Shown in pieces: positions 4,708 through 41,533 of a stretch of 64,000 bases of DNA. The notes under the pieces are model-generated. The model worked only from the letters and a program-made list of their open reading frames with translations, made no database searches and was not told where the DNA came from. The position numbers and the translations under genes were made by a program. The stretch's first letter is position 1. Every line of letters starts with the position of its first letter. This DNA is from Candidatus Uhrbacteria bacterium CG10_big_fil_rev_8_21_14_0_10_50_16 (GTDB taxonomy: Bacteria; Patescibacteriota; Patescibacteriia; UBA9934; UBA11717), in assembly GCA_002774875.1 (NCBI GenBank), contig PCYM01000006.1, positions 17,434 to 81,433 on the forward strand, given 5' to 3'.

Positions 4708-4883
4708 AAACCCGTTGTCTCATAAGCTACGGCTTGTGAGCAACGAAGCGTGCATATCAACACAGAGCGTCAGATGATATGATTGCTTCGTCGCTAAAAC
4801 GACATCTCATTCACAGCCTGGTGGCAAGATAGAGACCTCAACACATTGAGTTCTTGAGTCTGACTGCCAGGGGAACCAATTTT

Positions 4884-7133
4884 ATGGAACCAAAACAATT
4901 CTCTACGGAGTGGGCAGGTAAAACGCTTACGATCGAAGTAGGACGAATGGCTTTCCAGGCAGACGCCGCTTGTACCGTGCGCTATGGCGACACGGTCGTT
5001 ATGGCAACGGTCGTTATGTCCAAGGAAGAACGTCCTGGAATGAACTTTTTCCCGCTCATGGTGGATTACGAGGAAAAGTATTCCGCTGCTGGTAAGATCA
5101 AGGGATCGCGATTCATTAAGCAAGAGGGACGACCATCAGACCAAGCCGTTTTGGCTGGCCGTATGATCGACCGTACGCTACGACCGCTTTTTGATGAGCG
5201 TATTCGTAACGATATCCAGGTAATCGCATCCGTGTTGTCATTCGATGAGGAAAATGATCCGGATATCGTGGCAATCATTGCTTCTTGCGTTGTTCTCCAT
5301 ATGTCTCAAATCCCATGGGAGGGACCGGTTGCTGGTATTCGTATGGGACACATAGACGGCGCATGGATTGCCAATCCAACCTACACGCAACGAGAAACAA
5401 GCGTATCGGACCTCGTGGTCTGCGGAACAACTGACCGACTGCTCATGGTAGAAGCAAGTGCAAAACAGATACCAGACGCAACCATGATGGAAGGGGTAGA
5501 AGCCGGGCTCAAATCGCTCTCACCTGTTCTGGATCTCATTCAGCAAGTTCGTGATGCCGTCGGATCCGAGAAAATCGATCCCTTACAAGGCAAGGAAACA
5601 GCTGAACAAATGGCGACACGTGAGCAGGTAGAATCTCTTGCAAAGCCATTTATCAGCAAAAAAGTGGAGGAGCTCTTCTTTGGCGCACCACTTGATCGCA
5701 AAATTGATCGTGCTATGGCCCGAGGAGTTCTCACAGATCAGCTCAAGGATTTCTTACTCAGTGAAGGTGTAGAGGAAGAGAACCTTTCTTTTGGCACCAG
5801 CATGGTGTACCACGAGATCGAACACGTCATCTCTCAACAAATTCTCAAAAATGATCGTCGCGTTGACGGCCGTGCAATCGAAGAAATTCGTCCTCTTAGC
5901 TGTACCGTGGGGCTTTTACCACGCACGCATGGATCAGGACTTTTTGCACGCGGAGAAACACAGGTTCTCTCAACCGTAACCCTCGCAGGCCCAGGTGCAG
6001 CGCAGGTGATCGATACAATGGAAGTAGACGAGAAAAAGCGCTACATGCATCACTACTCATTTCCTCCATTTAGTGTCGGGGAAACGCGACCATTGCGAGG
6101 ACCAGGACGTCGTGAGGTTGGTCATGGTGCACTCGCAGAAAAAGCTCTCGAGCCTGTTCTTCCAGACGCAGAGGTATTCCCTTACGTAATCCGTGTTACA
6201 TCGGACACCATGGGATCAAACGGCTCTAGCTCTATGGGATCCGTCTGCGGATCGACAATCTCACTATTGGATGCAGGCGTTCCGCTTAAAGCGCCCGTCG
6301 CAGGTGTGGCTGTCGGTCTTGCATCGACACCCGACATGAACGAATGGAAAGTGTTTACGGATCTACAGGATTTAGAGGATGGACAGGGCGGAATGGACTT
6401 TAAAGTCGCAGGAACAACAGACGGCGTAACAGCAATTCAGCTGGACACAAAAACGCTCGGACTCAACATGGACATTGTAAAGGAAGCCTTCCGACAAGCC
6501 TCAAAGGCACGAGGGCAGATTCTTGAAGTTATCTCCAACACTATTGCAGAACCACGCGCCGAGCTTTCTCTCTACGCGCCTCGTATTGAGAGTATGCGTA
6601 TTAATCCAGACAAGATTCGTGACGTCATTGGCCCAGGAGGAAAGATGATTAACGAAATTATTGCCAAGACGGGTGTAGAAATTGATATTGAAGATGATGG
6701 AGTTGTCACGATTACCTCACGTATGGCAGAGGGAATGAAGGAAGCAATGGATTGGGTTAGGCTGCTTACTGCAGAAATTGAAGTAGGAAAGACGTATCAC
6801 GGAACGGTTACACGTCTTATGGATTTTGGTGCGTTCGTCGAAGTCCTGCCAAAGCAAGAAGGACTTGTGCATGTCTCCGAGATGGCGCCCTACCGCGTAA
6901 ACCAGGTAAAGGACATTGTAAAGGAAGGGGACAAGGTCTATGTAAAGGTCACCGAGGTAGACCAAATGGGTCGCACGAACCTCTCTATGAAGCAAGCAGA
7001 GGGAAATGTGTACCCAGAACCACCCACACAGGCAGAACGAAAGCCAGAAGGGGATCGTCCTGCACGTCGACCAGGATCGGATCGACCATCAGCGCCACGC
7101 GGTCCACGTCCACCACACCGTAATAACGGATAA
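4884..7133 (+). CDS. pnp: polyribonucleotide nucleotidyltransferase (PNPase)
   Basis: Two RNase PH domains, GGMDFKVAGT, and KH + S1 domains (GKTYHGTVTRLMDFGAFVEV). Start placed at MEPKQFSTEW. Confidence 0.95.
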   Translation: MEPKQFSTEWAGKTLTIEVGRMAFQADAACTVRYGDTVVMATVVMSKEERPGMNFFPLMVDYEEKYSAAGKIKGSRFIKQEGRPSDQAVLAGRMIDRTLRPLFDERIRNDIQVIASVLSFDEENDPDIVAIIASCVVLHMSQIPWEGPVAGIRMGHIDGAWIANPTYTQRETSVSDLVVCGTTDRLLMVEASAKQIPDATMMEGVEAGLKSLSPVLDLIQQVRDAVGSEKIDPLQGKETAEQMATREQVESLAKPFISKKVEELFFGAPLDRKIDRAMARGVLTDQLKDFLLSEGVEEENLSFGTSMVYHEIEHVISQQILKNDRRVDGRAIEEIRPLSCTVGLLPRTHGSGLFARGETQVLSTVTLAGPGAAQVIDTMEVDEKKRYMHHYSFPPFSVGETRPLRGPGRREVGHGALAEKALEPVLPDAEVFPYVIRVTSDTMGSNGSSSMGSVCGSTISLLDAGVPLKAPVAGVAVGLASTPDMNEWKVFTDLQDLEDGQGGMDFKVAGTTDGVTAIQLDTKTLGLNMDIVKEAFRQASKARGQILEVISNTIAEPRAELSLYAPRIESMRINPDKIRDVIGPGGKMINEIIAKTGVEIDIEDDGVVTITSRMAEGMKEAMDWVRLLTAEIEVGKTYHGTVTRLMDFGAFVEVLPKQEGLVHVSEMAPYRVNQVKDIVKEGDKVYVKVTEVDQMGRTNLSMKQAEGNVYPEPPTQAERKPEGDRPARRPGSDRPSAPRGPRPPHRNNG

Positions 7134-8137
7134 TGTATCGTTACCGCGACAACTATTTAGACACACAGCAGTCAGCCCGACCTTGGATCCGTTGGGCTGC
7201 TGTTGTTTTGTATCTCTTACTTGTGGGTTATTTAGCGATTACGTGGATACATCAGGGCAATGCTATTCCTAACGCTTCCTCATCCATTGGTGGTGCTGTC
7301 ACGTTACCTGAAGATGATTACGCTATTGCGATATTTTTTAATACAGACCAAAAGGAACTCCTCTTTAATGTCACAGGGCTTGTAGGTCAGGCTTTCGCGG
7401 TTAAAAATGACGGATCAATCGTGTCTATTAACCAAATGGTTCCATCGGCGCCAAGACCTCCTGCATGGTTTCTTCCAACAACAGTAGGCGTTGTCTACGT
7501 GAGAGAAGGGGATACTGTCACAACGCGCCGTCTATTTCGTATCAAAAATGGCATAGCTGTTTCTATGCCAGGTCAAAAGGCAATCCAAATCCCCATTCAT
7601 CCCAATGCAACAATCGGAATACATTGCTCCAACAACTGCTCTATTCCTGGTACAAGCCTCGTCCTCCCAGAAGGGCTCGACCTTATTTCTACCGATCATC
7701 AACTCATGATCGCAACGGACGCAAAAAATAGAGCGTCCTTTATGCAATTTATTTATGTGAGTAGCAAGCAGCAGAACCCCATAGAAAGAGATCGGCTCAC
7801 CAACGATGGGCGTACGATCTCAGAGCTCGTCCCGGCAGACACGATCGACACAATTATTACAGACGAAGCTTTGCAAACGCACTACACAGGAGGAACAACC
7901 TTTGGATGGTACTATCAGATCAATGAAGATCGTGACGTGCTCTTGGCATCAACATCAACAGACCTCCTAAATGAGTACACATCAGAGATGTCTACAGCTA
8001 CGTGGACAAATACAATTTGTGAAAAACACCCAGTCTCGTTTTACAGATATCATTCTTTGCCAATGTTAGAGGAAAACACGCAATCGACCTACACACTTGT
8101 TCGAAGTATAAATTCCTGGCGTATCTGTGCAGAGTAA
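7133..8137 (+). CDS. hypothetical protein with an N-terminal TM anchor
   Basis: 334-aa ORF; the ATG overlaps the pnp stop (TAATG); TM helix WAAVVLYLLLVGYLAITW; no recognisable domain. Confidence 0.5.
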   Translation: MYRYRDNYLDTQQSARPWIRWAAVVLYLLLVGYLAITWIHQGNAIPNASSSIGGAVTLPEDDYAIAIFFNTDQKELLFNVTGLVGQAFAVKNDGSIVSINQMVPSAPRPPAWFLPTTVGVVYVREGDTVTTRRLFRIKNGIAVSMPGQKAIQIPIHPNATIGIHCSNNCSIPGTSLVLPEGLDLISTDHQLMIATDAKNRASFMQFIYVSSKQQNPIERDRLTNDGRTISELVPADTIDTIITDEALQTHYTGGTTFGWYYQINEDRDVLLASTSTDLLNEYTSEMSTATWTNTICEKHPVSFYRYHSLPMLEENTQSTYTLVRSINSWRICAE

Positions 8138-8143
8138 CCATTC

Positions 8144-8200
8144 TGTGGATAACCTGAGGGTAACTGTGGATTAATGTGGATAAGAAATTACTTATCCACA
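8144..8200. promoter_or_regulatory. cluster of four DnaA-box 9-mers
   Basis: TGTGGATAA 8144-8152, TGTGGATTA 8165-8173, TGTGGATAA 8175-8183 and inverted TTATCCACA 8192-8200. The first box is 7 bp after the stop of the preceding gene. Confidence 0.6.
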
Positions 8201-8263
8201 TTTTTGTTTAAAAATAACGAACAAGTTTTTGTTTTTTTATCTAAAATAAGCCAAATACATCCG

Positions 8264-8292
8264 TTGACAAATAGTGTTCAACGTGCTACTAT
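8264..8292 (+). promoter_or_regulatory. sigma70-like promoter (TTGACA-17-TACTAT)
   Basis: Perfect -35 TTGACA, 17-nt spacer, -10 TACTAT. It points into an ORF-free GC-rich region. Confidence 0.4.
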
Positions 8293-8297
8293 GTGTA

Positions 8298-8700
8298 TGT
8301 ACCCTTCAAACAATCGTTCTTTCAAAACCCCTACCACAGGGGTGTCTAGCGAAGACTGGTACATCTTGGCTGCGCACCTCTCCTCGCAACTGTTCTATTC
8401 CATTGTTTAAAAATAAAAACATAAAATTGGGATAAAACAAACGCCACGAAGGGCTCCCCTCAATACATGTTGGTCTCAAATTGGACCGGCGCTCGAGGGA
8501 TGCCATAGAACGGTTATGAGGGAAATGTTCTACCACGTGCAGGCAGCTCGTAGGCCGAGATCTGAAGACAATCCTTGTCGCTGGATCCCGGTCTACTGGA
8601 GCGCTCTTCTGCAGTGGACCTAACGTCCGACTGCCCGAGTCACCAGCGCTCCACCTATCTATAAAGGGAGACGCTCGTAGTTCAGGCAGTCTTTTCGTTT
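8298..8700 (+). ncRNA. candidate structured ncRNA downstream of a promoter (possible RNase P RNA-like)
   Basis: ~400 nt with no credible ORF and high GC. Hairpins CCCCTACCACAGGGG and GGACCGG...CCGGTC. The 3' segment CCCGGUCUACUGG resembles the RNase P P4-3' CCCGGCUUAUCGG. Confidence 0.3.
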
Positions 8701-8760
8701 CCACAACCCTTGACAGTTTTTTCATAATAGATCACTGCTTAATTGGTATACTAGTAGTCC

Positions 8761-9228
8761 ATGAAACTATCTACCCCCCATCGTTCCGTGGTGATTGCAT
8801 TGATTGTTACATGTCTTCTCGTTATAAGCGATGGATTATTTAAGTTCATTGCATTATCGCGCCTTAGAGACGTATTTATTCCAGTCTTACCGGGTGTCGC
8901 CGAGTTTTATCTCCACAAAAACCTAGGTGTTGTTGCAAATACACCTATACCTCTCCTGCTCGTCATACCTCTTTCGGTTGTTATTCTCATCGGATGCAGT
9001 ATGTGGCTTTCTCGCATCTGGAGTCATCAGCCGAGTTTAGCCATTAGTCTGGTCTTACTCATTGGAGGAGCCTTTGGTAATTTGGTCGATCGTGTTGTCC
9101 ACGGGTTTACAACAGACTATCTCCTGCTATTCAGTCGGAGCATCATAAATCTGTCGGACGTACTCATTGTTCTTGGCATACTGGGTATTTTGTTCGCTAC
9201 AAACAAAACCTCCCCACATCAATCATAA
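8761..9228 (+). CDS. lspA: lipoprotein signal peptidase II
   Basis: 155 aa, 4 TM helices, GGAFGNLVDR and NLSDVLIVLG motifs. Confidence 0.9.
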   Translation: MKLSTPHRSVVIALIVTCLLVISDGLFKFIALSRLRDVFIPVLPGVAEFYLHKNLGVVANTPIPLLLVIPLSVVILIGCSMWLSRIWSHQPSLAISLVLLIGGAFGNLVDRVVHGFTTDYLLLFSRSIINLSDVLIVLGILGILFATNKTSPHQS

Positions 9229-11534: not shown

Positions 11535-11587
11535 CCGTCTAAACCCGAAAGACATGCCATGTGCGTGTCTTTCTTGTATTATAGAGC

Positions 11588-11945
11588 TATGCTCCCCTAC
11601 GATTATCGTCTCAAGAAGGAAATGGACATTAAAAAGCTCTTTTCTAAAGGAAAAGGGGTGTTTGACGTAAAGGTGGGTGCCAAGGTCCGCAAGAACGGAT
11701 TGCAGCAAACTCGGTTTGTGATCGTGGTCGGAGTAAAGGTCCACAAGCGAGCCTTCCGTCGTAATCGTATTCGTCGACGTGTTCGTGCAATTCTAGAAGC
11801 ACATTTGAGCCACATCGCCACAGACTACGACATCGCAATCATCGCGCGACCAGAGGCGCTTAAAGCCTCATATGAGGAGCTTCAAACATCCGTTCTCTCC
11901 GCGCTCAAGAAAGCCGGCGTTTTGAATGACGTTCCTATACTATGA
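11588..11945 (+). CDS. rnpA: ribonuclease P protein component
   Basis: MLPYDYRLKKEMDIKKLF...RRNRIRRRVRAI carries the RnpA signature (RL.k..F; RNR.KR). Confidence 0.9.
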
Positions 11946-12202
11946 GGTTTCAAAACTTTGTTTATCCACTACGGCTTCCCGTGTTGGGGATGATTCGTCT
12001 CTATCAAAAAACGCTTTCCTTTGATCATGGGCCGCTTAAAGGATTTTATCCGCATGGCTATTGTCGCTTTCATCCAACGTGCTCTGAGTATGGATATAAG
12101 TCGATTAAAAACCAGGGCATCATAGTAGGAGGTGTTAAAACGTTGTATCGTATTCTTCGCTGTAACCCGTGGAGTCGTGGGGGAGTCGATGAACCTCAAT
12201 AA
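11942..12202 (+). CDS. yidD: membrane protein insertion efficiency factor YidD
   Basis: 86 aa; CRFHPTCSEYGYKSIKNQG...RCNPWSRGGVD is the YidD signature. Confidence 0.9.
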   Translation: MRFQNFVYPLRLPVLGMIRLYQKTLSFDHGPLKGFYPHGYCRFHPTCSEYGYKSIKNQGIIVGGVKTLYRILRCNPWSRGGVDEPQ

Positions 12203-12233
12203 ATAAGTTACCCTCAAGTTATCCCCATGTTGT

Positions 12234-12258
12234 CCGTGCCTTGTGCACGGATTTTTTG
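12234..12258 (+). terminator. rho-independent terminator after yidD
   Basis: CCGTGCC-TTGT-GCACGG followed by ATTTTTTG. Confidence 0.5.
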
Positions 12259-12307
12259 TTTCTTATTGTGCAACTATTATTTACTACAACCCCAATCTTG
12301 GCCAAAA

Positions 12308-12391
12308 CTATCCACAGTATTCACGACTTATGCACGAATGCTGTGGACAACTTAGAGCTTATAAACAGGCTTTCTATTCAACTGTGGATAT
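12308..12391. promoter_or_regulatory. DnaA-box cluster upstream of dnaA
   Basis: CTATCCACA 12308-12316, TGTGGACAA 12342-12350, TGTGGATAT 12383-12391. Confidence 0.55.
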
Positions 12392-12471
12392 GTGGTATGA
12401 TTCTGTCACTCGGAAATACAGCCAGGCGCACGGCCGTTAGTCCGCTTCACGCGTATCACTCAAACAAAATT

Positions 12472-13842
12472 ATGGATACACAAGAGTTGTGGGAAACCAC
12501 ATTAGGGGAGCTTGAATTAGAGCTCTCAAAGGCAAATTTTACAACCTGGTTCAAGGACACGTTCATCACCGAGATCACACACGACCATATCGTCATTGCG
12601 GTCCCCAACAATTTCACAAAAACATGGTTAGAGAATAAATATCATAAAAGTATTCTCAAATCTCTACAGAGGGCAACAAGTGACGCCGTACGAGAAGTAA
12701 CATACAACGTAGAGGTAAAAGGATCCTCAAACGGCCCACAACCAATCCCGATTCATAATACCCAGGTTGATACATCGATTGCCTTTAGTCGTAGTGACCT
12801 GCAGGACGATCCAATCGGAAACACCCTCAATCCACGCTACACTTTTGATGCTTACATCGTCGGAAAACAAAACGAGTTTGCTCATGCTGCCGCCATGGCT
12901 GTTCCTAAAAATCTCGGAACCACCTACAACCCCCTATTTATCTACGGAGGCGTAGGACTTGGCAAAACGCATCTTTTACAAGCAATCGGGCATGAGGTTG
13001 TTCAGCTCAACCCCGGAAAGCGTGTACTCTACGTTACGAGTGAGAAGTTCACCAATGATTTTATCCAGGCCGTTAGAACCGGACGTGCGCGTGAGTTTAA
13101 AGATGTTTATAGAACCGTGGACGTGTTAATTGTGGATGATATTCAGTTTTTTAGTGGAAAAGTAGAAACACAGGAAGAGTTTTTTCACACATTCAACGCA
13201 CTTCACCAGCAGAACAAGCAGATCATCTTGTCCGCCGATCGACCACCAAAACTCATCACCGCGTTAGAAAATCGTCTTTTATCCCGTTTTGAATGGGGAA
13301 TGACGGCCGATATCAGTAGCCCCGACTATGAGACACGTGTTGCGATATTGGAGGCAAAGTGTCGAGAGCGTCAATGGAGCATGCCACAAGAGGTCATGCG
13401 CCACGTTGCGGACAATATCCAATCAAATGTTCGCGAACTTGAAGGCGCCCTTAATAAAATTATTGCGTACCATCAGTTAAAAAATCAGGTACCAACCTTG
13501 GAATCCGTTGCCCCAATTGTGCAGAGTTTTAGGCCCGTAGACATCATAAAAACGGCCACTCCGCGAGAACTTATGCATGTGGTGGCTGAGTACTATGACA
13601 TAACTATGGACGAGCTCGTTGGAAAAAGTCGAGAGAAGCGACTCGCATTTCCACGTCAAATCATTATGTATCTCTTGCGCGAGGATATGAGTTATTCCTA
13701 CCCATCAATTGGACAGGAGCTCGGCGGAAGAGACCACACGACAGCAATGCACGCCTATTCAAAAATAAAGCGCTGCCTCGAATCGGATGAGAAGCTGTGT
13801 CACGATATGGAGATCATTAAGCAGCGATTGTACGCAGCATAA
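12472..13842 (+). CDS. dnaA: chromosomal replication initiator protein DnaA
   Basis: Start placed at MDTQELWETTLGELE (the longer ORF begins inside the DnaA-box region). AAA+ GGVGLGKTHLLQAIG and a C-terminal HTH. Confidence 0.95.
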   Translation: MDTQELWETTLGELELELSKANFTTWFKDTFITEITHDHIVIAVPNNFTKTWLENKYHKSILKSLQRATSDAVREVTYNVEVKGSSNGPQPIPIHNTQVDTSIAFSRSDLQDDPIGNTLNPRYTFDAYIVGKQNEFAHAAAMAVPKNLGTTYNPLFIYGGVGLGKTHLLQAIGHEVVQLNPGKRVLYVTSEKFTNDFIQAVRTGRAREFKDVYRTVDVLIVDDIQFFSGKVETQEEFFHTFNALHQQNKQIILSADRPPKLITALENRLLSRFEWGMTADISSPDYETRVAILEAKCRERQWSMPQEVMRHVADNIQSNVRELEGALNKIIAYHQLKNQVPTLESVAPIVQSFRPVDIIKTATPRELMHVVAEYYDITMDELVGKSREKRLAFPRQIIMYLLREDMSYSYPSIGQELGGRDHTTAMHAYSKIKRCLESDEKLCHDMEIIKQRLYAA

Positions 13843-14094
13843 GTCCACAGGTTTAGGGGATAACCCTGCTTATAACCCTGTAGAAAAGTATGTGTATGGG
13901 CACGTGGATAATAAGTGGATAATAGACCCGCGGGGGTGGGGACATAGTTGTTCACAGGCTGCGTCCCATCCATACACACAGTGGCTGTGCACTGAATAGA
14001 CTATTAAACATTCATTCAATAGGACTTTTCCACCCTATCCACAGCACTATTACTATTACTAGTTATATATCTATATTCATAAGAACACGTAAAC
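13843..14094. other. candidate oriC (dnaA-dnaN intergenic)
   Basis: DnaA-box-like 9-mers CGTGGATAA 13903-13911, AGTGGATAA 13914-13922 and CTATCCACA 14035-14043, followed by the AT-rich tract ACTATTACTATTACTAGTTATATATCTATATTCAT. Confidence 0.5.
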
Positions 14095-38384: not shown

Positions 38385-39200
38385 TCAGGTCTCCTCGTCG
38401 TCGGTGGCCGTCGTGGGGCGGGGGGCGAACTGGAGGAACTTCCCGCCCCTCCGAATCGGCCACCAGCCCATCACGGCATAAAAGGCGAACAAGCCTCCCA
38501 CACCGCAGAGGGCGAGCCCCATGAGGATGTAGGCCAGGGCCCACATCCCCCGAGGCTCGCCGGCGGGGTTTGTGCCGGCGCCGGCCACCATCACCGCCAG
38601 GCCCCAGAGGGCCAGGACCATGGCGGGGATGAGGGCGTAGAGCCGCAACATCCCAGCTGAGGTGGTGGTGAAGGGCTCCTTGGCGATCTTCACCACCTTC
38701 TCCTTCTTCCTCTCCACCACCTTGTAGAACACCGTCGGCTTGGTGCCGATGGTCCCGAGGTTGAGGGCCTTCTTGGCCGGTGGGGTAGACCCTCCGACAG
38801 GGGTGAAGGTGAATCTGGCCAGCTTCACCTTCTTGGCCGGAGCCGTCGGAGGGGCGGGGGCGGCCGCAGGGGCAGCTTTGGGAGCTGCCTTCGGTGCAGC
38901 CTTTGGAACTGCGGGTGCCGCGGGAGGCGGGACCGGTGCAGCCTTGGCCGCCGGCACGAGGGCGGCGCACTGCCGTGCTACCCACTCTCGCCGCGAGGTC
39001 TCCGTCTCTCCGCCGCCAAAGGGCCGGCGGAGGTTGACGGCTGCCTCCAAATCCCCCTGGAGCCCTCTGGCAGCTTCCACCCAGGCCAGGAGGTCGGGGT
39101 TGGGGGTGGTCTCGAGGATCACCATGTAGTGACCCTTTGAGACCTCGTCGGGGCCCAACGCAACGCCGGTACTCCGGAGGAGCCTGAATCTGTGGGCCAT
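38385..39200 (-). CDS. hypothetical membrane protein (island gene 1): N-domain, (KAAP)n linker, C-terminal TM hairpin
   Basis: 271 aa from MAHRFRLL with RBS AAAGGAGG; ~65% GC with GC3 bias. Pro/Ala/Lys-rich linker AAPKAAPKAAPAAAP. Two C-terminal TM helices. No recognisable family. Confidence 0.7.
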   Translation of the reverse strand: MAHRFRLLRSTGVALGPDEVSKGHYMVILETTPNPDLLAWVEAARGLQGDLEAAVNLRRPFGGGETETSRREWVARQCAALVPAAKAAPVPPPAAPAVPKAAPKAAPKAAPAAAPAPPTAPAKKVKLARFTFTPVGGSTPPAKKALNLGTIGTKPTVFYKVVERKKEKVVKIAKEPFTTTSAGMLRLYALIPAMVLALWGLAVMVAGAGTNPAGEPRGMWALAYILMGLALCGVGGLFAFYAVMGWWPIRRGGKFLQFAPRPTTATDDEET

Positions 39201-39265
39201 GCGGCCTCCTTTCCGGGCGTTTAGCCCTTGTTTTTGGGGTTTCTCACATCTTGTGTGAGCCAAGC

Positions 39266-39294
39266 AACATACCAGAAAAATGCAATTTTGTCAA
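39266..39294 (-). promoter_or_regulatory. sigma70-like promoter for island gene 1 (TTGACA-17-TATGTT on the minus strand)
   Basis: On the minus strand: TTGACAAAATTGCATTTTTCTGGTATGTT. Confidence 0.5.
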
Positions 39295-39316
39295 TGGGGG
39301 AGGTGTTTGGGTGAGG

Positions 39317-39345
39317 GTTGACAAAACCGTGTTTTTCTGGTATAT
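39317..39345 (+). promoter_or_regulatory. sigma70-like promoter for island gene 2 (TTGACA-17-TATATT)
   Basis: TTGACAAAACCGTGTTTTTCTGGTATATT, a near-identical mirror image of the minus-strand promoter 22 bp away. Confidence 0.55.
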
Positions 39346-39451
39346 TTCTACGTTATTCCTTAGGAATAGCCGCGGCTTCTGCCGTGTTGAACCGTTCTCT
39401 AAAATTGAAACGCGAAAGCGTACGAGACACCCAACACGGAAGGAGCCAAAT

Positions 39452-41452
39452 ATGGCACCCAAGAAGACCCCGTCCCCTACCGTTCCATTTTGGAAGACGG
39501 TGGAGGACATGATCGGCCAGCAGGTCGGTCACGCGGCAGGTAAGGGCCTGTCGCACTCCCACATCGTCACCCTCCTGGTGTCGATGATGAACGATCAGGT
39601 TCTCGGAGCGCTCAGGTTGGCGGGGCCGTCTTTGACGGCCGGCGTCGGCAAGACGGCGTTCCAGGTTTTGAAGGGCCGGATCCCGGTCCTCAAGAACCTC
39701 GCGGATCCCGTTCTGGAGGAGGCCATGGAGGGCCTCCTCAACGGGTTCTTCTCCCACCTCGCCAAGTTCCCCGGTGCGACGGACGCCCAGGCGCGCATGG
39801 CTCTGTTGGCTGCGGCCAACGAGTCCATGATCGCGCACGCCCCGGTCTCCGGGGGGGCGGTCAAGCCCGGCAGCTTCGTGCTGTCGGATGCCGTGCTCAA
39901 GGCCTTGGAGGAGAAGTACGACGAGGACTCCGTCAGGGAGATCCTCGCGTGGTACTGCCACGGGGTGAGCTGCCTCGCAAGGGCAGCCCTGGACATGAAC
40001 GTCCAGGACAGCCTCGCCGTGGAGGCCGGGATGGCCTTCAACCACGGCGATTTCTCGAGCGTGGTCTCCGTGATCACGTTCGTGGAGACGGCCAAGAAGC
40101 ACCAGGGATCCTTCGAGAACCTGGTATACGCGTGCGCGGCCGTGGTCCAGGCCAACACCGCCGCCGACCACAGCGGCATGCGGACCACGTTCATGGCGCG
40201 CCGCTTGTTGGCGCGCGGCCTCAACTGGCTCGGGGTCAACGGGACCCGCCAGAACTTCATGAACGTTCTCGGGAACTGGATCGCCCCCGGACTGCTCAAG
40301 GACGGGCAGTTCGTGGCGTTCCTCGTGGCCCTCTGGGTCGCGTGCTACGTGACCACGGCGGTTCCGTGGTTCTACGCCGCGCGTGCGGGGAGCTTCGTCG
40401 GGATGTTCATCCTTGCGGCGCTCAATCTGATCGTGACCCAGTTCACCCTCAAGGTGCTGGGTCTGGTCGTCGGGGTTCATTCGTCCCTGTACCGGGGAGT
40501 GCTGCACTTCCTCGGCCAGAAGGAGGAGGGTGGCGGGGACAAGCTTCCTGCCCTCCAGTCCCTGAGGGCGCAGGCCTCCAGCCCCCTGCTGGTGGCTACT
40601 GTGCTCAACGCGATCTTGATTTTGCTCCTGGGGGAGACCCCGCGAGCATTCAACTTCGCGATCATGATCTTGATGGCGACCGTCTCGGTCGGTATCCTGA
40701 TCAGCATCTGGGACATGGCCAAGACGAGCCACGCCAAGTTCTTCCTCGATGCGGGGATCAAGTACCTCCTCCCCGTTTTGCTGGCCTCCATGGCCTGGGA
40801 CGTGTACGACGCCTTCACCCAGAGCCAACTCCCCGGCAAGGGGATGCGGCTCATGGGCAATGTCCACGAGTTCTGGGGCTGGGCGACCAGCTTCAGCATG
40901 GGACAGGTGGTCACGGGAGGACTCACGATCCTCTTGGTGGCCGCAGTCGCCTTCGCCCTCAAGCAGGGCAAGGTGTGGCACGCGATCGCCCTCGTGGTGA
41001 TCGCGGTCCCCCTCTCGTGGATCGTGGACTGCTCCGTTTCGGCGCCCAAGCGCGCCGAGGCCGCACAGGAGCAGAGGGCGCAGGAACATGCCCTCCAGCT
41101 GGAGACCCTTCGTCTCCAGCGGCAGGTGGCGGAGGCGGGGAAGACCGTCATTGTCGTCGGCGACCCGGTCCTCGCAATGCGTCAACTGGGTGGCCCCACC
41201 CGCAAGGCGGACATCGCCCTGCGGGTGCCTCGCGAAAGCTCGGCTGCAACCGAGCGCGAGGAGATCCAGATTGAGGATGAGGAAGAGTGGGAGGAGGACC
41301 TCGACATGTTCGTGCCGGAGAAGCCGAACATCAGAGAGATCCTCCGCGAGCGGGAGGAAAGGGCACAGCGTACGGTTCACCACCGTCCGCGGCCCTCCTC
41401 CCGCCGCACGTCGGCCCACCACCACCGCGCGCAACGGAATGCGCGTAGGTGA
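39452..41452 (+). CDS. hypothetical large polytopic membrane protein (island gene 2)
   Basis: 666 aa from MAPKKTPSPTV with RBS AGGAG. ~330-aa soluble N-domain, ~7 predicted TM helices, a coiled-coil (EAAQEQRAQEHALQLETLRLQRQVAEAG) and a charged RE-rich tail. ~65% GC; no recognisable family. Confidence 0.75.
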   Translation: MAPKKTPSPTVPFWKTVEDMIGQQVGHAAGKGLSHSHIVTLLVSMMNDQVLGALRLAGPSLTAGVGKTAFQVLKGRIPVLKNLADPVLEEAMEGLLNGFFSHLAKFPGATDAQARMALLAAANESMIAHAPVSGGAVKPGSFVLSDAVLKALEEKYDEDSVREILAWYCHGVSCLARAALDMNVQDSLAVEAGMAFNHGDFSSVVSVITFVETAKKHQGSFENLVYACAAVVQANTAADHSGMRTTFMARRLLARGLNWLGVNGTRQNFMNVLGNWIAPGLLKDGQFVAFLVALWVACYVTTAVPWFYAARAGSFVGMFILAALNLIVTQFTLKVLGLVVGVHSSLYRGVLHFLGQKEEGGGDKLPALQSLRAQASSPLLVATVLNAILILLLGETPRAFNFAIMILMATVSVGILISIWDMAKTSHAKFFLDAGIKYLLPVLLASMAWDVYDAFTQSQLPGKGMRLMGNVHEFWGWATSFSMGQVVTGGLTILLVAAVAFALKQGKVWHAIALVVIAVPLSWIVDCSVSAPKRAEAAQEQRAQEHALQLETLRLQRQVAEAGKTVIVVGDPVLAMRQLGGPTRKADIALRVPRESSAATEREEIQIEDEEEWEEDLDMFVPEKPNIREILREREERAQRTVHHRPRPSSRRTSAHHHRAQRNARR

Positions 41453-41533
41453 TGTAAACCCCGGTGCAACGCCGGGGTTAGGACACAGGTTGCTCAGCAC
41501 CTAGGACCCAAAGCTGAGTACTCACGAAGACAT

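What the first reader, a model, noticed from the sequence alone, without database searches (positions are those of the whole stretch)
8298..8700. ORF-free GC-rich transcript candidate between the DnaA-box promoter and lspA (possible RNase P RNA-like)
About 400 nt with no plausible ORF; the 139-aa minus-strand ORF is R/S/P-rich nonsense. GC is high and there are several strong hairpins. The long-range pairing GGACCGG (about 8492) with CCGGTC (about 8595), followed by CUACUGG, resembles the RNase P RNA P4 helix and the bacterial P4-3' consensus CCCGGCUUAUCGG. An rnpA gene is present at 11588, so an rnpB should exist. The CCCCTACCACAGGGG hairpin at about 8330 recurs at the proS terminator (63240).
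Basis: partly seen in the sequence, partly recalled or inferred. Interest (0 to 1): 0.5.

Follow-up and report, generated by a model that had tools for sequence, protein, structure and literature searches.

The report
Unclassified structured RNA gene in Uhrbacteria
The 400-base gap upstream of lspA is very probably a separately transcribed, highly folded RNA gene shared by a small group of groundwater Uhrbacteria; it is not RNase P RNA, matches no described RNA family, and its function is unknown.

Summary
The ORF-free stretch is real, and it is a gene. A near-consensus sigma-70 promoter (8264-8292) is followed by about 400 nt of structured RNA (8299-8700), ending in a long hairpin plus U-tract. 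I found the same element in 13 further distinct loci from groundwater Uhrbacteria-like Patescibacteria, always upstream of (dksA-like)-lspA-comM. Between the window and its nearest relative the RNA is 93% identical, while the flanking genes are 62-76% identical at the DNA level. Three helix sets show strong covariation: 90-94% of cells paired against 36-54% in slid controls, and 10-15 pairs changed on both sides.

The RNase P reading fails.
- Rfam 15 lists no RNase P match, even at E<=10.
- CR-I and CR-V are absent.
- The CCGGTC arm proposed as P4-3' pairs locally with GGCCGAG in a covarying hairpin.
- ARAGORN finds no tmRNA.

The 139-aa minus-strand ORF is broken in relatives. The region is not GC-rich, and the "recurring" hairpin occurs only once.

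Best reading: a previously undescribed, clade-restricted, trans-acting structured RNA, possibly controlled by DnaA. Its biochemical role is not established. No expression data were available.

The parts
8144..8200 (.). Cluster of four DnaA boxes (three perfect TTATCCACA, one with 1 mismatch), followed by an AT-rich spacer (8201-8263).
   Evidence: 28 matches in the window against 13.5 expected, and the only perfect boxes are here; boxes lie at fixed distances upstream of the RNA in 11 of 14 loci, with one box in L087 and none in L097 or L014.
8264..8292 (+). Sigma-70 promoter of the RNA: TTGACA, 17 nt, TACTAT, with TG upstream of the -10. The inferred start is near 8299.
   Evidence: 10 of 12 matches, TG present. 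The equivalent promoter is seen in relatives. 96.6% identical to L081. The start site is inferred, not measured.
8299..8700 (+). The RNA gene itself, about 400 nt, from the inferred start to the end of the U-tract.
   Evidence: Fold z = -5.65. 93.3% identity to L081 against 62-76% for flanking genes. Homologues in 13 other distinct loci. Covariation. G-U pairs are frequent, which fits the + strand.
8299..8327 (+). Conserved, apparently unpaired 5' segment containing CGUUCUUUC (8315-8323).
   Evidence: GYUCUUUC is kept in nearly all members. No conserved partner was found. Its role is unknown.
8338..8381 (+). Hairpin H2. The base is GGGG/CCUC. The upper stem CGAAG/CUU.G is almost invariant. It overlaps the alternative small hairpin CCCCUACCACAGGGG (8328-8342).
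   Evidence: helix 1: 98.5% of cells paired. One search aligns the window to model R1 here. H2 accounts for 52% of the local ensemble.
8382..8398 (+). 5' strand of the long-range helix LR (CCUC-GC-AACUGUUCUAU).
   Evidence: Pairs with 8505-8521. It is the best partner of that strand in 10 of 13 members. Two base pairs change on both sides between subfamilies (C:G to U:A at two positions). Family helix 2 is 92.9% paired.
8399..8504 (+). Central domain enclosed by LR: an AU-rich variable part and the hairpin 8452-8504, which includes UGUUGGUCU/GGACCGGCG at 8468-8491.
Evidence: This is the most variable part between the window and L081/L084.
8505..8521 (+). 3' strand of the long-range helix LR (AUAGAACGGUU-AU-GAGG). 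It is homologous to the family motif GGUAGAGCAGG.
8533..8617 (+). Long irregular 3' hairpin. Its core H6 (8550-8564 with 8582-8596) is GUAGGCCGAGAUCUG / UGGAUCCCGGUCUAC, with a conserved G-A-G opposite C-C-C.
   Evidence: -42.2 kcal/mol, z = -4.87; 14 sequences, 94.3% paired against 36-44% when slid, 10 of 14 pairs changed on both sides. Model R2 scores 45.2 bits here.
8629..8700 (+). Terminator: a 21-bp hairpin (8629-8691) followed by UUUUCGUUU (8692-8700).
   Evidence: -27.2 kcal/mol, z = -3.49. Every homologue ends in a long hairpin plus a U-run. The simple terminator scan misses it because the loop exceeds 8 nt.
8710..8752 (+). Separate promoter region for the downstream gene: conserved TTGACA (8710-8715) and an extended -10, TGgTATACT (8744-8752). 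lspA starts at 8761.
   Evidence: In relatives, TTGACA-17-(G/A)ATAGT follows the RNA's U-run directly and precedes the dksA-like gene. In the window the spacing is altered, so the exact promoter is inferred.

Best explanation
Window 8299-8700 (+) is the gene for a structured non-coding RNA of about 400 nt. The RNA belongs to a family I could not find described, and the family is restricted to a clade of Uhrbacteria-like Patescibacteria (CPR).

It is transcribed from its own strong sigma-70 promoter (8264-8292) and ends at its own intrinsic terminator (8629-8700). The next gene has a separate promoter.

The fold has these modules:
- a conserved single-stranded 5' segment (CGUUCUUUC);
- hairpin H2;
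- a long-range helix closing a central domain;
- a long 3' hairpin (H6) with an invariant G-A-G/C-C-C internal motif;
- the terminator hairpin.

I infer that it works in trans through this fold, most likely as a stable protein-bound particle, and not as a leader of lspA or as RNase P RNA. In most members a DnaA-box cluster lies at a fixed distance upstream, so its synthesis may be tied to DnaA or to replication initiation.

Shown: gene-like signals, conservation, covarying structure, strand, and absence of coding potential.
Inferred: transcription itself, action in trans, protein binding, and DnaA control. The biochemical activity is unknown.
For: Signals:
- Promoter with 10 of 12 matches plus TG. 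The same two-promoter layout is found by the scan in relatives.
- Hairpin plus U-run terminator in all members.

Conservation:
- The synteny pnp-hyp-[RNA]-(dksA-like)-lspA-comM recurs in every relative fetched.
- RNA 93.3% identical between the window and L081, against lspA 61.9%, comM 76.3%, pnp 76.1% and hyp 61.5%.

Structure:
- z = -5.65.
- 5' half: 93.0% of cells paired against 40-54% when slid, 10 pairs changed on both sides, 0 of 500 shuffles as high.
- 3' half: 90.5% against 39-51%, 15 such pairs.
- H6 across all 14 members, including the window: 94.3% against 36-44%, covariation 0.596 against at most 0.154.
- The window aligns to model R1 built without it (13.3 bits, E about 5e-4 in 601 nt, filters off). 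It scores 45.2 bits with R2, which was built with it.

Independence from the downstream gene: the window subfamily has lost the dksA-like gene but keeps the RNA.

Non-coding: the ORF is not preserved and has no Pfam hit.

Not a known family: Rfam; ARAGORN.

Not mobile or viral: single copy, always syntenic, with no hits in viral contigs.
Against: - No expression data were available, so the start, the end and even transcription itself are inferred from sequence.
- All 14 members come from closely related uncultured groundwater lineages. The covariation therefore rests on a shallow tree. The tool itself warns that shuffle control (a) can be exceeded by related sequences without any structure. 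The slid controls are the stronger argument.
- Nothing indicates what the RNA binds or does.
- It always lies on the same strand directly upstream of dksA-like/lspA, so a cis role is not excluded.
- Rfam sensitivity for diverged CPR RNAs is known to be limited (PMC8172020).
Confidence: 0.72

Rival explanations
1. Cis-acting leader (riboswitch- or attenuator-like). The RNA would be a very long 5' untranslated region whose terminator controls read-through into dksA-like/lspA/comM.
For: It is always directly upstream and co-oriented with (dksA-like)-lspA-comM. It ends in an intrinsic terminator. In the window subfamily the 5' element can alternatively pair with the 3' strand of LR.
Against: - A conserved TTGACA-17-(G/A)ATAGT promoter sits between the terminator and the next gene.
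- The RNA is retained at 93% identity where the adjacent dksA-like gene has been lost.
- At 360-636 nt it is larger than the riboswitch aptamers I know of (my own knowledge).
- The alternative pairing is not among the best partners in the broad family.
- No antiterminator was identified.
Confidence: 0.1
2. A 6S/Ms1-like regulator of RNA polymerase. This is a specific version of the trans-acting reading, suggested by the neighbouring DksA/TraR-type zinc-finger gene, whose relatives bind RNA polymerase.
For: In 11 of 14 loci the next gene is a DksA/TraR zinc-finger protein. The RNA looks stable and strongly expressed, with a near-consensus promoter.
Against: No 6S or Ms1 match was listed in Rfam at E<=10. 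The fold is multi-domain, not the long rod with a central bubble that defines 6S. The adjacency is lost in the window subfamily. Gene neighbourhood is weak evidence.
Confidence: 0.08
3. Origin-linked transcript. The DnaA-box cluster plus AT-rich stretch would be (part of) oriC, and what matters would be transcription through the region (origin activation or priming), not the RNA product.
For: The only perfect DnaA boxes of the window, followed by an AT-rich 60 nt, lie just upstream. Box positions are fixed relative to the RNA in 11 of 14 loci. The GC-skew minimum lies at about 10-14 kb, and dnaA/dnaN are 4 kb away.
Against: Covarying helices and 93% sequence conservation point to selection on the RNA fold, not merely on transcription. 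L097 and L014 have the RNA but no DnaA box within 350 nt. Other DnaA-box groups flank dnaA itself, nearer the skew minimum.
Confidence: 0.05
4. Highly diverged RNase P RNA.
For: The size (about 360-400 nt) and strong conservation fit a housekeeping RNA. rnpA is 2.9 kb downstream. CPR RNase P RNAs are known to be diverged, and 10 of 35 were missed at Rfam cut-offs (PMC8172020).
Against: - No RNase P model is listed even at E<=10 on 701 nt or on small relatives' loci, where other long models were listed at 4.5-14 bits.
- CR-I (GAGGAAAGUCCGG) and CR-V (ACAGAANCCGGCUUA) are absent at up to 3 mismatches in 8293-8700.
- The supposed P4-3' strand pairs locally in covarying H6.
- The 5' and 3' ends do not pair (no P1).
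- The diverged CPR forms in PMC8172020, including five ABY1-class genomes, were still found by RF00010 at a reduced threshold. That Uhrbacteria belong to class ABY1 is my own recollection.
Confidence: 0.03
5. Not an RNA gene: a conserved DNA element (protein-binding region of the origin) or a decayed gene remnant.
For: No transcription data. DnaA boxes are nearby. Both strands fold well.
Against: Compensatory base-pair changes, many G-U pairs specific to the + strand, a promoter and a U-run terminator in the right orientation in all members, and no reading frame preserved.
Confidence: 0.02

Closest known systems
Bacterial RNase P RNA (Rfam RF00010/RF00011), including the diverged CPR forms of Lui et al. 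2021 (PMC8172020)
   Same: Similar length (about 350-400 nt), multi-domain fold with a long-range helix, conservation much stronger than in neighbouring genes, a chromosomal single-copy gene, and an rnpA gene in the vicinity.
   Different: No model match. No CR-I or CR-V. No P4 pseudoknot-like helix, because the candidate strand pairs locally. No P1 joining the two ends. The RNA ends in an intrinsic terminator hairpin.
Large orphan bacterial ncRNAs found by comparative genomics (OLE, GOLLD, ROOL, HEARO, raiA motif RNAs)
   Same: Several hundred nucleotides long, elaborate covarying secondary structure, narrow phylogenetic range, found from sequence alone, and biochemical function initially unknown.
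   Different: No sequence or structure match to any of them in Rfam 15. From my own knowledge, GOLLD and ROOL are often prophage- or tRNA-associated and OLE lies inside an operon with its partner proteins. This RNA is a stand-alone gene next to DnaA boxes in a fixed chromosomal context of CPR bacteria.
6S RNA / Ms1 RNA (RNA polymerase-binding RNAs)
   Same: A stand-alone, probably abundant RNA gene with a strong promoter. It lies next to a gene for a DksA-type protein, whose relatives bind RNA polymerase.
   Different: Twice the size of 6S, not a single rod with a central bubble, and no model match.
Terminator-type riboswitch or leader RNAs
   Same: Lies upstream of and co-oriented with protein genes, and ends in an intrinsic terminator.
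   Different: Much larger. A separate conserved promoter follows the terminator. The RNA is retained when the adjacent gene is lost.

Membership tests
Bacterial RNase P RNA | Scores against covariance models RF00010/RF00011 (or archaeal/minimal RNase P models), even at reduced thresholds. | tested here: not met
   No RNase P family is listed at the gathering score or at E<=10 on 8100-8800, on four relatives' loci (E<=1), on four small loci, or on the whole window at E<=5. Caveat: E-values are multiplied by 4227 families, so very weak scores could go unlisted.
Bacterial RNase P RNA | Conserved region CR-I (GAGGAAAGUCCGG, J3/4 and the P4 5' strand). | tested here: not met
   No match at up to 3 mismatches inside 8293-8700. 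The nearest family motif, GGGGAAGUUUCCCGAAG, is the 5' arm of local hairpin H2.
Bacterial RNase P RNA | Conserved region CR-V (ACAGAANCCGGCUUA, the P4 3' strand). | tested here: not met
   No match at up to 3 mismatches inside 8293-8700. By my own count, GGAUCCCGGUCUAC differs at about 6 positions.
Bacterial RNase P RNA | Long-range P4 helix joining CR-I and CR-V around the catalytic core. | tested here: not met
   The CCCGGUC strand pairs with GGCCGAG 25-45 nt upstream in a hairpin with 10 of 14 pairs changed on both sides. The GGACCGG arm lies in another local hairpin and is not conserved in L084.
Bacterial RNase P RNA | P1/P2 pairing of the 5' and 3' ends. | tested here: not met
   The 5' segment has no conserved partner. 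The 3' end is a self-contained terminator hairpin.
Bacterial RNase P RNA | Cleaves pre-tRNA 5' leaders (with RnpA). | not testable with these tools
   Needs a biochemical assay.
tmRNA | tRNA-like domain (acceptor and T-arm) plus a tag reading frame, as detected by ARAGORN or the Rfam tmRNA models. | tested here: not met
   ARAGORN finds only five tRNAs in the window and nothing in 13 related loci. No Rfam tmRNA match.
6S RNA / Ms1 | Model match, or a rod-like fold with a central open-promoter-like bubble. | tested here: not met
   No Rfam match. The consensus fold has several domains and a branched centre.
SRP RNA | Domain IV (helix 8) motif detected by RF00169/RF01854. | tested here: not met
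   No Rfam match at the gathering score or at E<=10.
Any Rfam 15 family (4227 models, including OLE, GOLLD, ROOL, HEARO, raiA and riboswitches) | A score at or near the family's gathering threshold, or a consistent weak hit across homologues. | tested here: not met
   In the RNA region only scattered sub-threshold hits to unrelated eukaryotic or enterobacterial models appear, and none recurs between homologues.
Structured non-coding RNA gene (generic) | Own promoter and terminator on one strand. | tested here: met
   promoters; hairpin plus U-run. These are sequence predictions only.
Structured non-coding RNA gene (generic) | Secondary structure maintained by compensatory changes among homologues. 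| tested here: met
   90-94% of cells paired against 36-54% in slid controls, and 10, 15 and 10 pairs with changes on both sides.
Structured non-coding RNA gene (generic) | No conserved reading frame. | tested here: met
   The 139-aa ORF is broken in L081 and L084. No Pfam hit. Indels that are not multiples of three occur throughout the alignments.
Structured non-coding RNA gene (generic) | Detected as a discrete transcript. | not testable with these tools
   No RNA-seq or metatranscriptome data were available.

The most novel reading that the evidence does not exclude
The RNA is a new class of large functional RNA (a ribozyme or the core of a ribonucleoprotein) that is essential in this CPR lineage. 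Its synthesis is controlled by DnaA from the adjacent box cluster, so it couples replication initiation to another core process, for example RNA polymerase control together with the neighbouring DksA-like protein.
Probability: 0.15. Interest if true: 0.85.

Novelty: categorically new. Interest (0 to 1): 0.6.

Why it matters
CPR/Patescibacteria have genomes of about 1 Mb or less and very few known regulators. A 400-nt RNA kept at 93% identity while its protein-coding neighbours have drifted to 62-76% suggests strong selection on the RNA. Large, elaborately folded bacterial RNAs without a known function are rare, and several earlier ones turned out to be ribozymes, ribonucleoprotein cores or self-assembling particles. 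This one adds a candidate from a lineage that cannot yet be cultured. Its position is intriguing too: next to perfect DnaA boxes and, in most members, next to a DksA-type gene. Practically, the finding also shows that a conserved 400-nt RNA near rnpA should not be annotated as RNase P RNA on size and neighbourhood alone.

Tried and rejected
1. RNase P RNA. Rejected on Rfam scans at the gathering score and at E<=10, CR-I/CR-V pattern searches, and covariation showing that the "P4-3'" strand pairs locally.
2. tmRNA. ARAGORN is negative in the window and in 13 loci.
3. Protein-coding on either strand. No Pfam hit, and the ORF is not preserved.
4. My first guess that the conserved 5' CGUUCUUUC pairs with GGUAGAGC. 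Replaced by the LR helix CUGCUGUAC/GUAGAGCAG after RNAalifold and a partner scan. The 5' element is a top partner only in the window subfamily.
5. nhmmer with the window sequence or the 3-sequence alignment against 80 comM loci of other bacteria. No hits, except the DnaA-box region of L088.
6. Models R1 and R2 against up to 82 other loci (722 kb). The only new member was L014, so the family was not found in the comM neighbourhoods of other Patescibacteria.
7. Metagenome pattern scan. Only 6 loci (3 distinct new sequences), all in the same gene context.
8. Two viral-contig scans. Nothing.
9. Seven literature searches. No description of such an RNA. The only relevant paper is on diverged CPR RNase P RNA.
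10. CsrA-sponge idea (GGA loops). Considered from the sequences and dropped, because the motifs are not conserved across members.
I therefore could not scan whole genomes for the true rnpB.

Full report
**What is at the coordinates**

The window comes from a Candidatus Uhrbacteria bacterium (CPR/Patescibacteria) from the Crystal Geyser CG10 data set. Its LspA is 100% identical to PIR47424.1.

Positions 8138-8760 are intergenic. They lie between a 334-aa hypothetical gene with no Pfam domain and lspA (PF01252), which is followed by a comM/Mg-chelatase-like gene. Further downstream come rnpA (11559-11945), dnaA (12241-13842) and dnaN.

The gap begins with four DnaA boxes (8144-8200), three of them perfect. 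These are the only perfect boxes in the 64 kb. An AT-rich 60 nt follows, and then a near-consensus sigma-70 promoter, TTGACA-17-TACTAT with an upstream TG, at 8264-8292. From about 8299 to 8700 there is no credible reading frame:
- The minus-strand 139-aa ORF has no Pfam hit.
- It is split into 35- and 44-aa pieces in the closest relative, even though that relative is 93% identical at the DNA level, and it is absent in the next relative.

The stretch folds much better than shuffled sequence, z = -5.65. It ends in a 21-bp hairpin (8629-8691) followed by UUUUCGUUU.

GC content is 0.46-0.54, which is ordinary for this genome at about 0.49. "GC-rich" holds only relative to the AT-rich DnaA-box region.

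**Known RNA families**

Rfam 15 finds only five tRNAs in the window at gathering scores. No RNase P, tmRNA, 6S, SRP or other plausible family appears in any of these searches:
- 8100-8800 at E<=10 with lax filters;
- four related loci;
- four small related loci;
- the whole window at E<=5.

ARAGORN finds no tmRNA in the window or in 13 related loci.

**Homologues**

comM relatives in the GTDB species genomes reach only 55% identity, and sequence search found no copy of the element there. I therefore searched with LspA against the large protein collection and fetched the encoding contigs.

Every relative has the same order: pnp, hypothetical gene, a gap of about 570-830 nt, then lspA and comM. 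In the more distant relatives a DksA/TraR-type zinc-finger gene sits in front of lspA (PF01258).

The gap always holds a homologue of the window element. Further members came from two searches:
- A pattern taken from the conserved core found six more metagenome contigs (three distinct sequences), all in the same context.
- A covariance model found one more member, L014, among 34 other loci.

In total there are 14 distinct sequences of 359-636 nt. They fall into the "window subfamily" (window, L081, L084; no dksA-like gene) and a broader group.

A second model built on the 3' hairpin found nothing else in 722 kb from 82 sources, mostly comM loci of other bacteria. Two scans of viral contigs were empty. 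The element is therefore single-copy, chromosomal and confined to this clade as far as I could see.

**Conservation**

Between the window and L081 the RNA is 93.3% identical and its promoter 96.6%. By comparison, lspA is 61.9%, comM 76.3%, pnp 76.1%, the hypothetical gene 61.5% and the spacer to lspA 59.4%. With L084 the identity falls to 58%. The pattern is one of conserved blocks separated by replaced hairpins, which is typical of a structured RNA.

**Structure**

The members share one architecture:
1. A conserved 5' segment, GUAAnCGUUCUUUC, with no conserved partner.
2. A variable hairpin H1. It is reduced in the window to CCCCUACCACAGGGG, which competes with H2 and loses in local folding.
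3. Hairpin H2, closed by GGGG/CCUC, with an almost invariant CGAAG/CUUCG top.
4. A long-range helix LR that encloses a central domain. In the family it is CUGCUGUAC/GUAGAGCAG. In the window it is AACUGUUCUAU (8388-8398) with AUAGAACGGUU (8505-8515), extended by CCUC/GAGG.
5. A long irregular 3' hairpin. Its core H6 is CGUUGAG.../...CCCAACG in the family and GUAGGCCGAGAUCUG / UGGAUCCCGGUCUAC in the window (8550-8564 with 8582-8596).
6. The terminator hairpin.

Pair counts support these helices:

| Helix set | Sequences | Cells paired | Paired when 3' partner is slid | Pairs changed on both sides |
|---|---|---|---|---|
| 5' half | 9 | 93.0% | 40-54% | 10 |
| 3' half | 10 | 90.5% | 39-51% | 15 |
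| H6, window subfamily included | 14 | 94.3% | 36-44% | 10 of 14 |

For the 5' half, no shuffle out of 500 reached the observed values. For H6, the covariation score is 0.596 against at most 0.154 in the slid controls.

Other structural points:
- LR differs between the subfamilies by two double changes (C:G to U:A), and a G-G mismatch becomes C:G. LR is the best available partner of its 3' strand in 10 of 13 members.
- G-U pairs are frequent in these helices. They would be A-C mismatches on the other strand, so the + strand is the RNA strand. This agrees with the promoter and the U-run.
- A fold of the window RNA constrained to H2 and LR costs only 4.4 kcal/mol more than the unconstrained optimum.
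- Model R1, built without the window subfamily, aligns 8337-8524 end to end at 13.3 bits with filters off.

The tree is shallow (14 related sequences), so these numbers are strong but not final.

**An independent gene, not a leader**

In relatives the RNA's U-run is followed at once by a conserved TTGACA-17-(G/A)ATAGT promoter in front of the dksA-like gene. The promoter scan finds it in L100 and L092.

The window subfamily has lost that gene yet keeps the RNA under strong constraint. This favours an RNA that works in trans.

**The RNase P idea**

The idea deserved care, for three reasons. The size fits, rnpA is nearby, and Lui et al. 2021 showed that CPR RNase P RNAs are often so diverged that 10 of 35 were missed at Rfam cut-offs (PMC8172020). 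Those diverged forms nevertheless kept many conserved RNase P features. They were recovered with RF00010 at a reduced threshold, in all genomes, including five of class ABY1. That Uhrbacteria belong to ABY1 is my own recollection.

Here the evidence runs the other way:
- No RNase P model is listed even where other long models appear at 4.5-14 bits.
- CR-I and CR-V are not present at up to 3 mismatches.
- The two ends do not pair.
- The other proposed arm, GGACCGG, lies in its own local hairpin, UGUUGGUCU/GGACCGGCG. The one difference in L081 (G to A) keeps that local pairing (U-G to U-A), and L084 has a different hairpin there.

I put RNase P at about 3%.

**DnaA boxes and the origin**

In 11 of 14 loci, three or four DnaA boxes lie at fixed distances upstream of the RNA. 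The distances from the 5' end of each extracted RNA segment (a few nt upstream of the inferred start) are -141, -113 and -78 in the broad group, and -149, -118 and -101 in the window subfamily. L087 has one box, and L097 and L014 have none.

The cumulative GC skew reaches its minimum at about 10-14 kb, and weaker box groups flank dnaA. The 8144-8200 cluster may therefore be part of a split origin or a DnaA-controlled promoter element. I cannot decide which. Because the RNA also exists without boxes, the link is probably regulatory rather than mechanistic.

**Verdict**

The stretch is ORF-free, structured and promoter-driven. It is not GC-rich, the hairpin does not recur, and the proposed pairing is wrong.
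It is a transcript candidate, but it is not RNase P.
- The best explanation is a previously undescribed, clade-restricted, independently transcribed structured RNA that acts in trans.
- What it binds or catalyses is unknown, and transcription itself still has to be shown.

Noticed in passing
window 38500-41500: A GC-rich island (0.63-0.69 against 0.49 for the genome) with long overlapping ORFs on both strands (39251-41452 +, 39353-41500 -). None has a Pfam hit. It could be foreign DNA or a low-complexity giant gene.
   Followed up: partly
window 8270-8283 and the equivalent position in L081, L084, L088, L089, L092, L093, L095, L096, L099, L100: The spacer between the -35 and -10 of the RNA promoter keeps a motif T(A/T)GTGTTCA in nearly all family members. 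This is unusual for a promoter spacer and may be a regulator binding site.
   Followed up: no
window 8144-8200; 11962-12391; 13903-14043: Three groups of DnaA boxes. The perfect ones are 4 kb from dnaA and the weaker ones flank dnaA. The GC-skew minimum is at about 10-14 kb. The origin may be split or displaced.
   Followed up: partly
window 8744-8763: lspA may be translated from a leaderless or nearly leaderless mRNA. An extended -10, TGgTATACT (8744-8752), lies only 9 nt before the ATG at 8761.
   Followed up: no
window 4850-5034 (-): Sub-threshold Rfam hit to Listeria rliD (33.9 bits, E = 1.2e-5), antisense to the 5' end of pnp. From memory, rliD is also antisense to pnpA in Listeria, so this is probably conservation of the pnp coding sequence rather than an RNA gene.
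   Followed up: no
L095 1160-1509: This family member is 636 nt long. About 240 extra nucleotides lie between hairpin H6 and the terminator. Their nature was not examined.
   Followed up: no
L084 3640-3665: In L084 the 5' strand of the long-range helix can instead form a perfect local hairpin, CUGCUCUA-GU-UAGAGCAG. The long-range pairing there has two mismatches. This may be an alternative topology in that lineage.
   Followed up: partly
L087-L093, L095-L097, L099, L100, L014 (gene directly after the RNA): A DksA/TraR-type C4 zinc-finger gene (about 122-140 aa) follows the RNA in the broad family but is missing at this locus in the window, L081 and L084. I did not check whether the window genome has a copy elsewhere.
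   Followed up: no
window 63241-63275: Intrinsic terminator AUCCCCUACACCACACGGUGCAGGGGAU followed by UUUGUUUU. It shares only the CCCCUAC/CAGGGG stem ends with the 8328-8342 motif, so it is not a repeat of that motif.
   Followed up: yes
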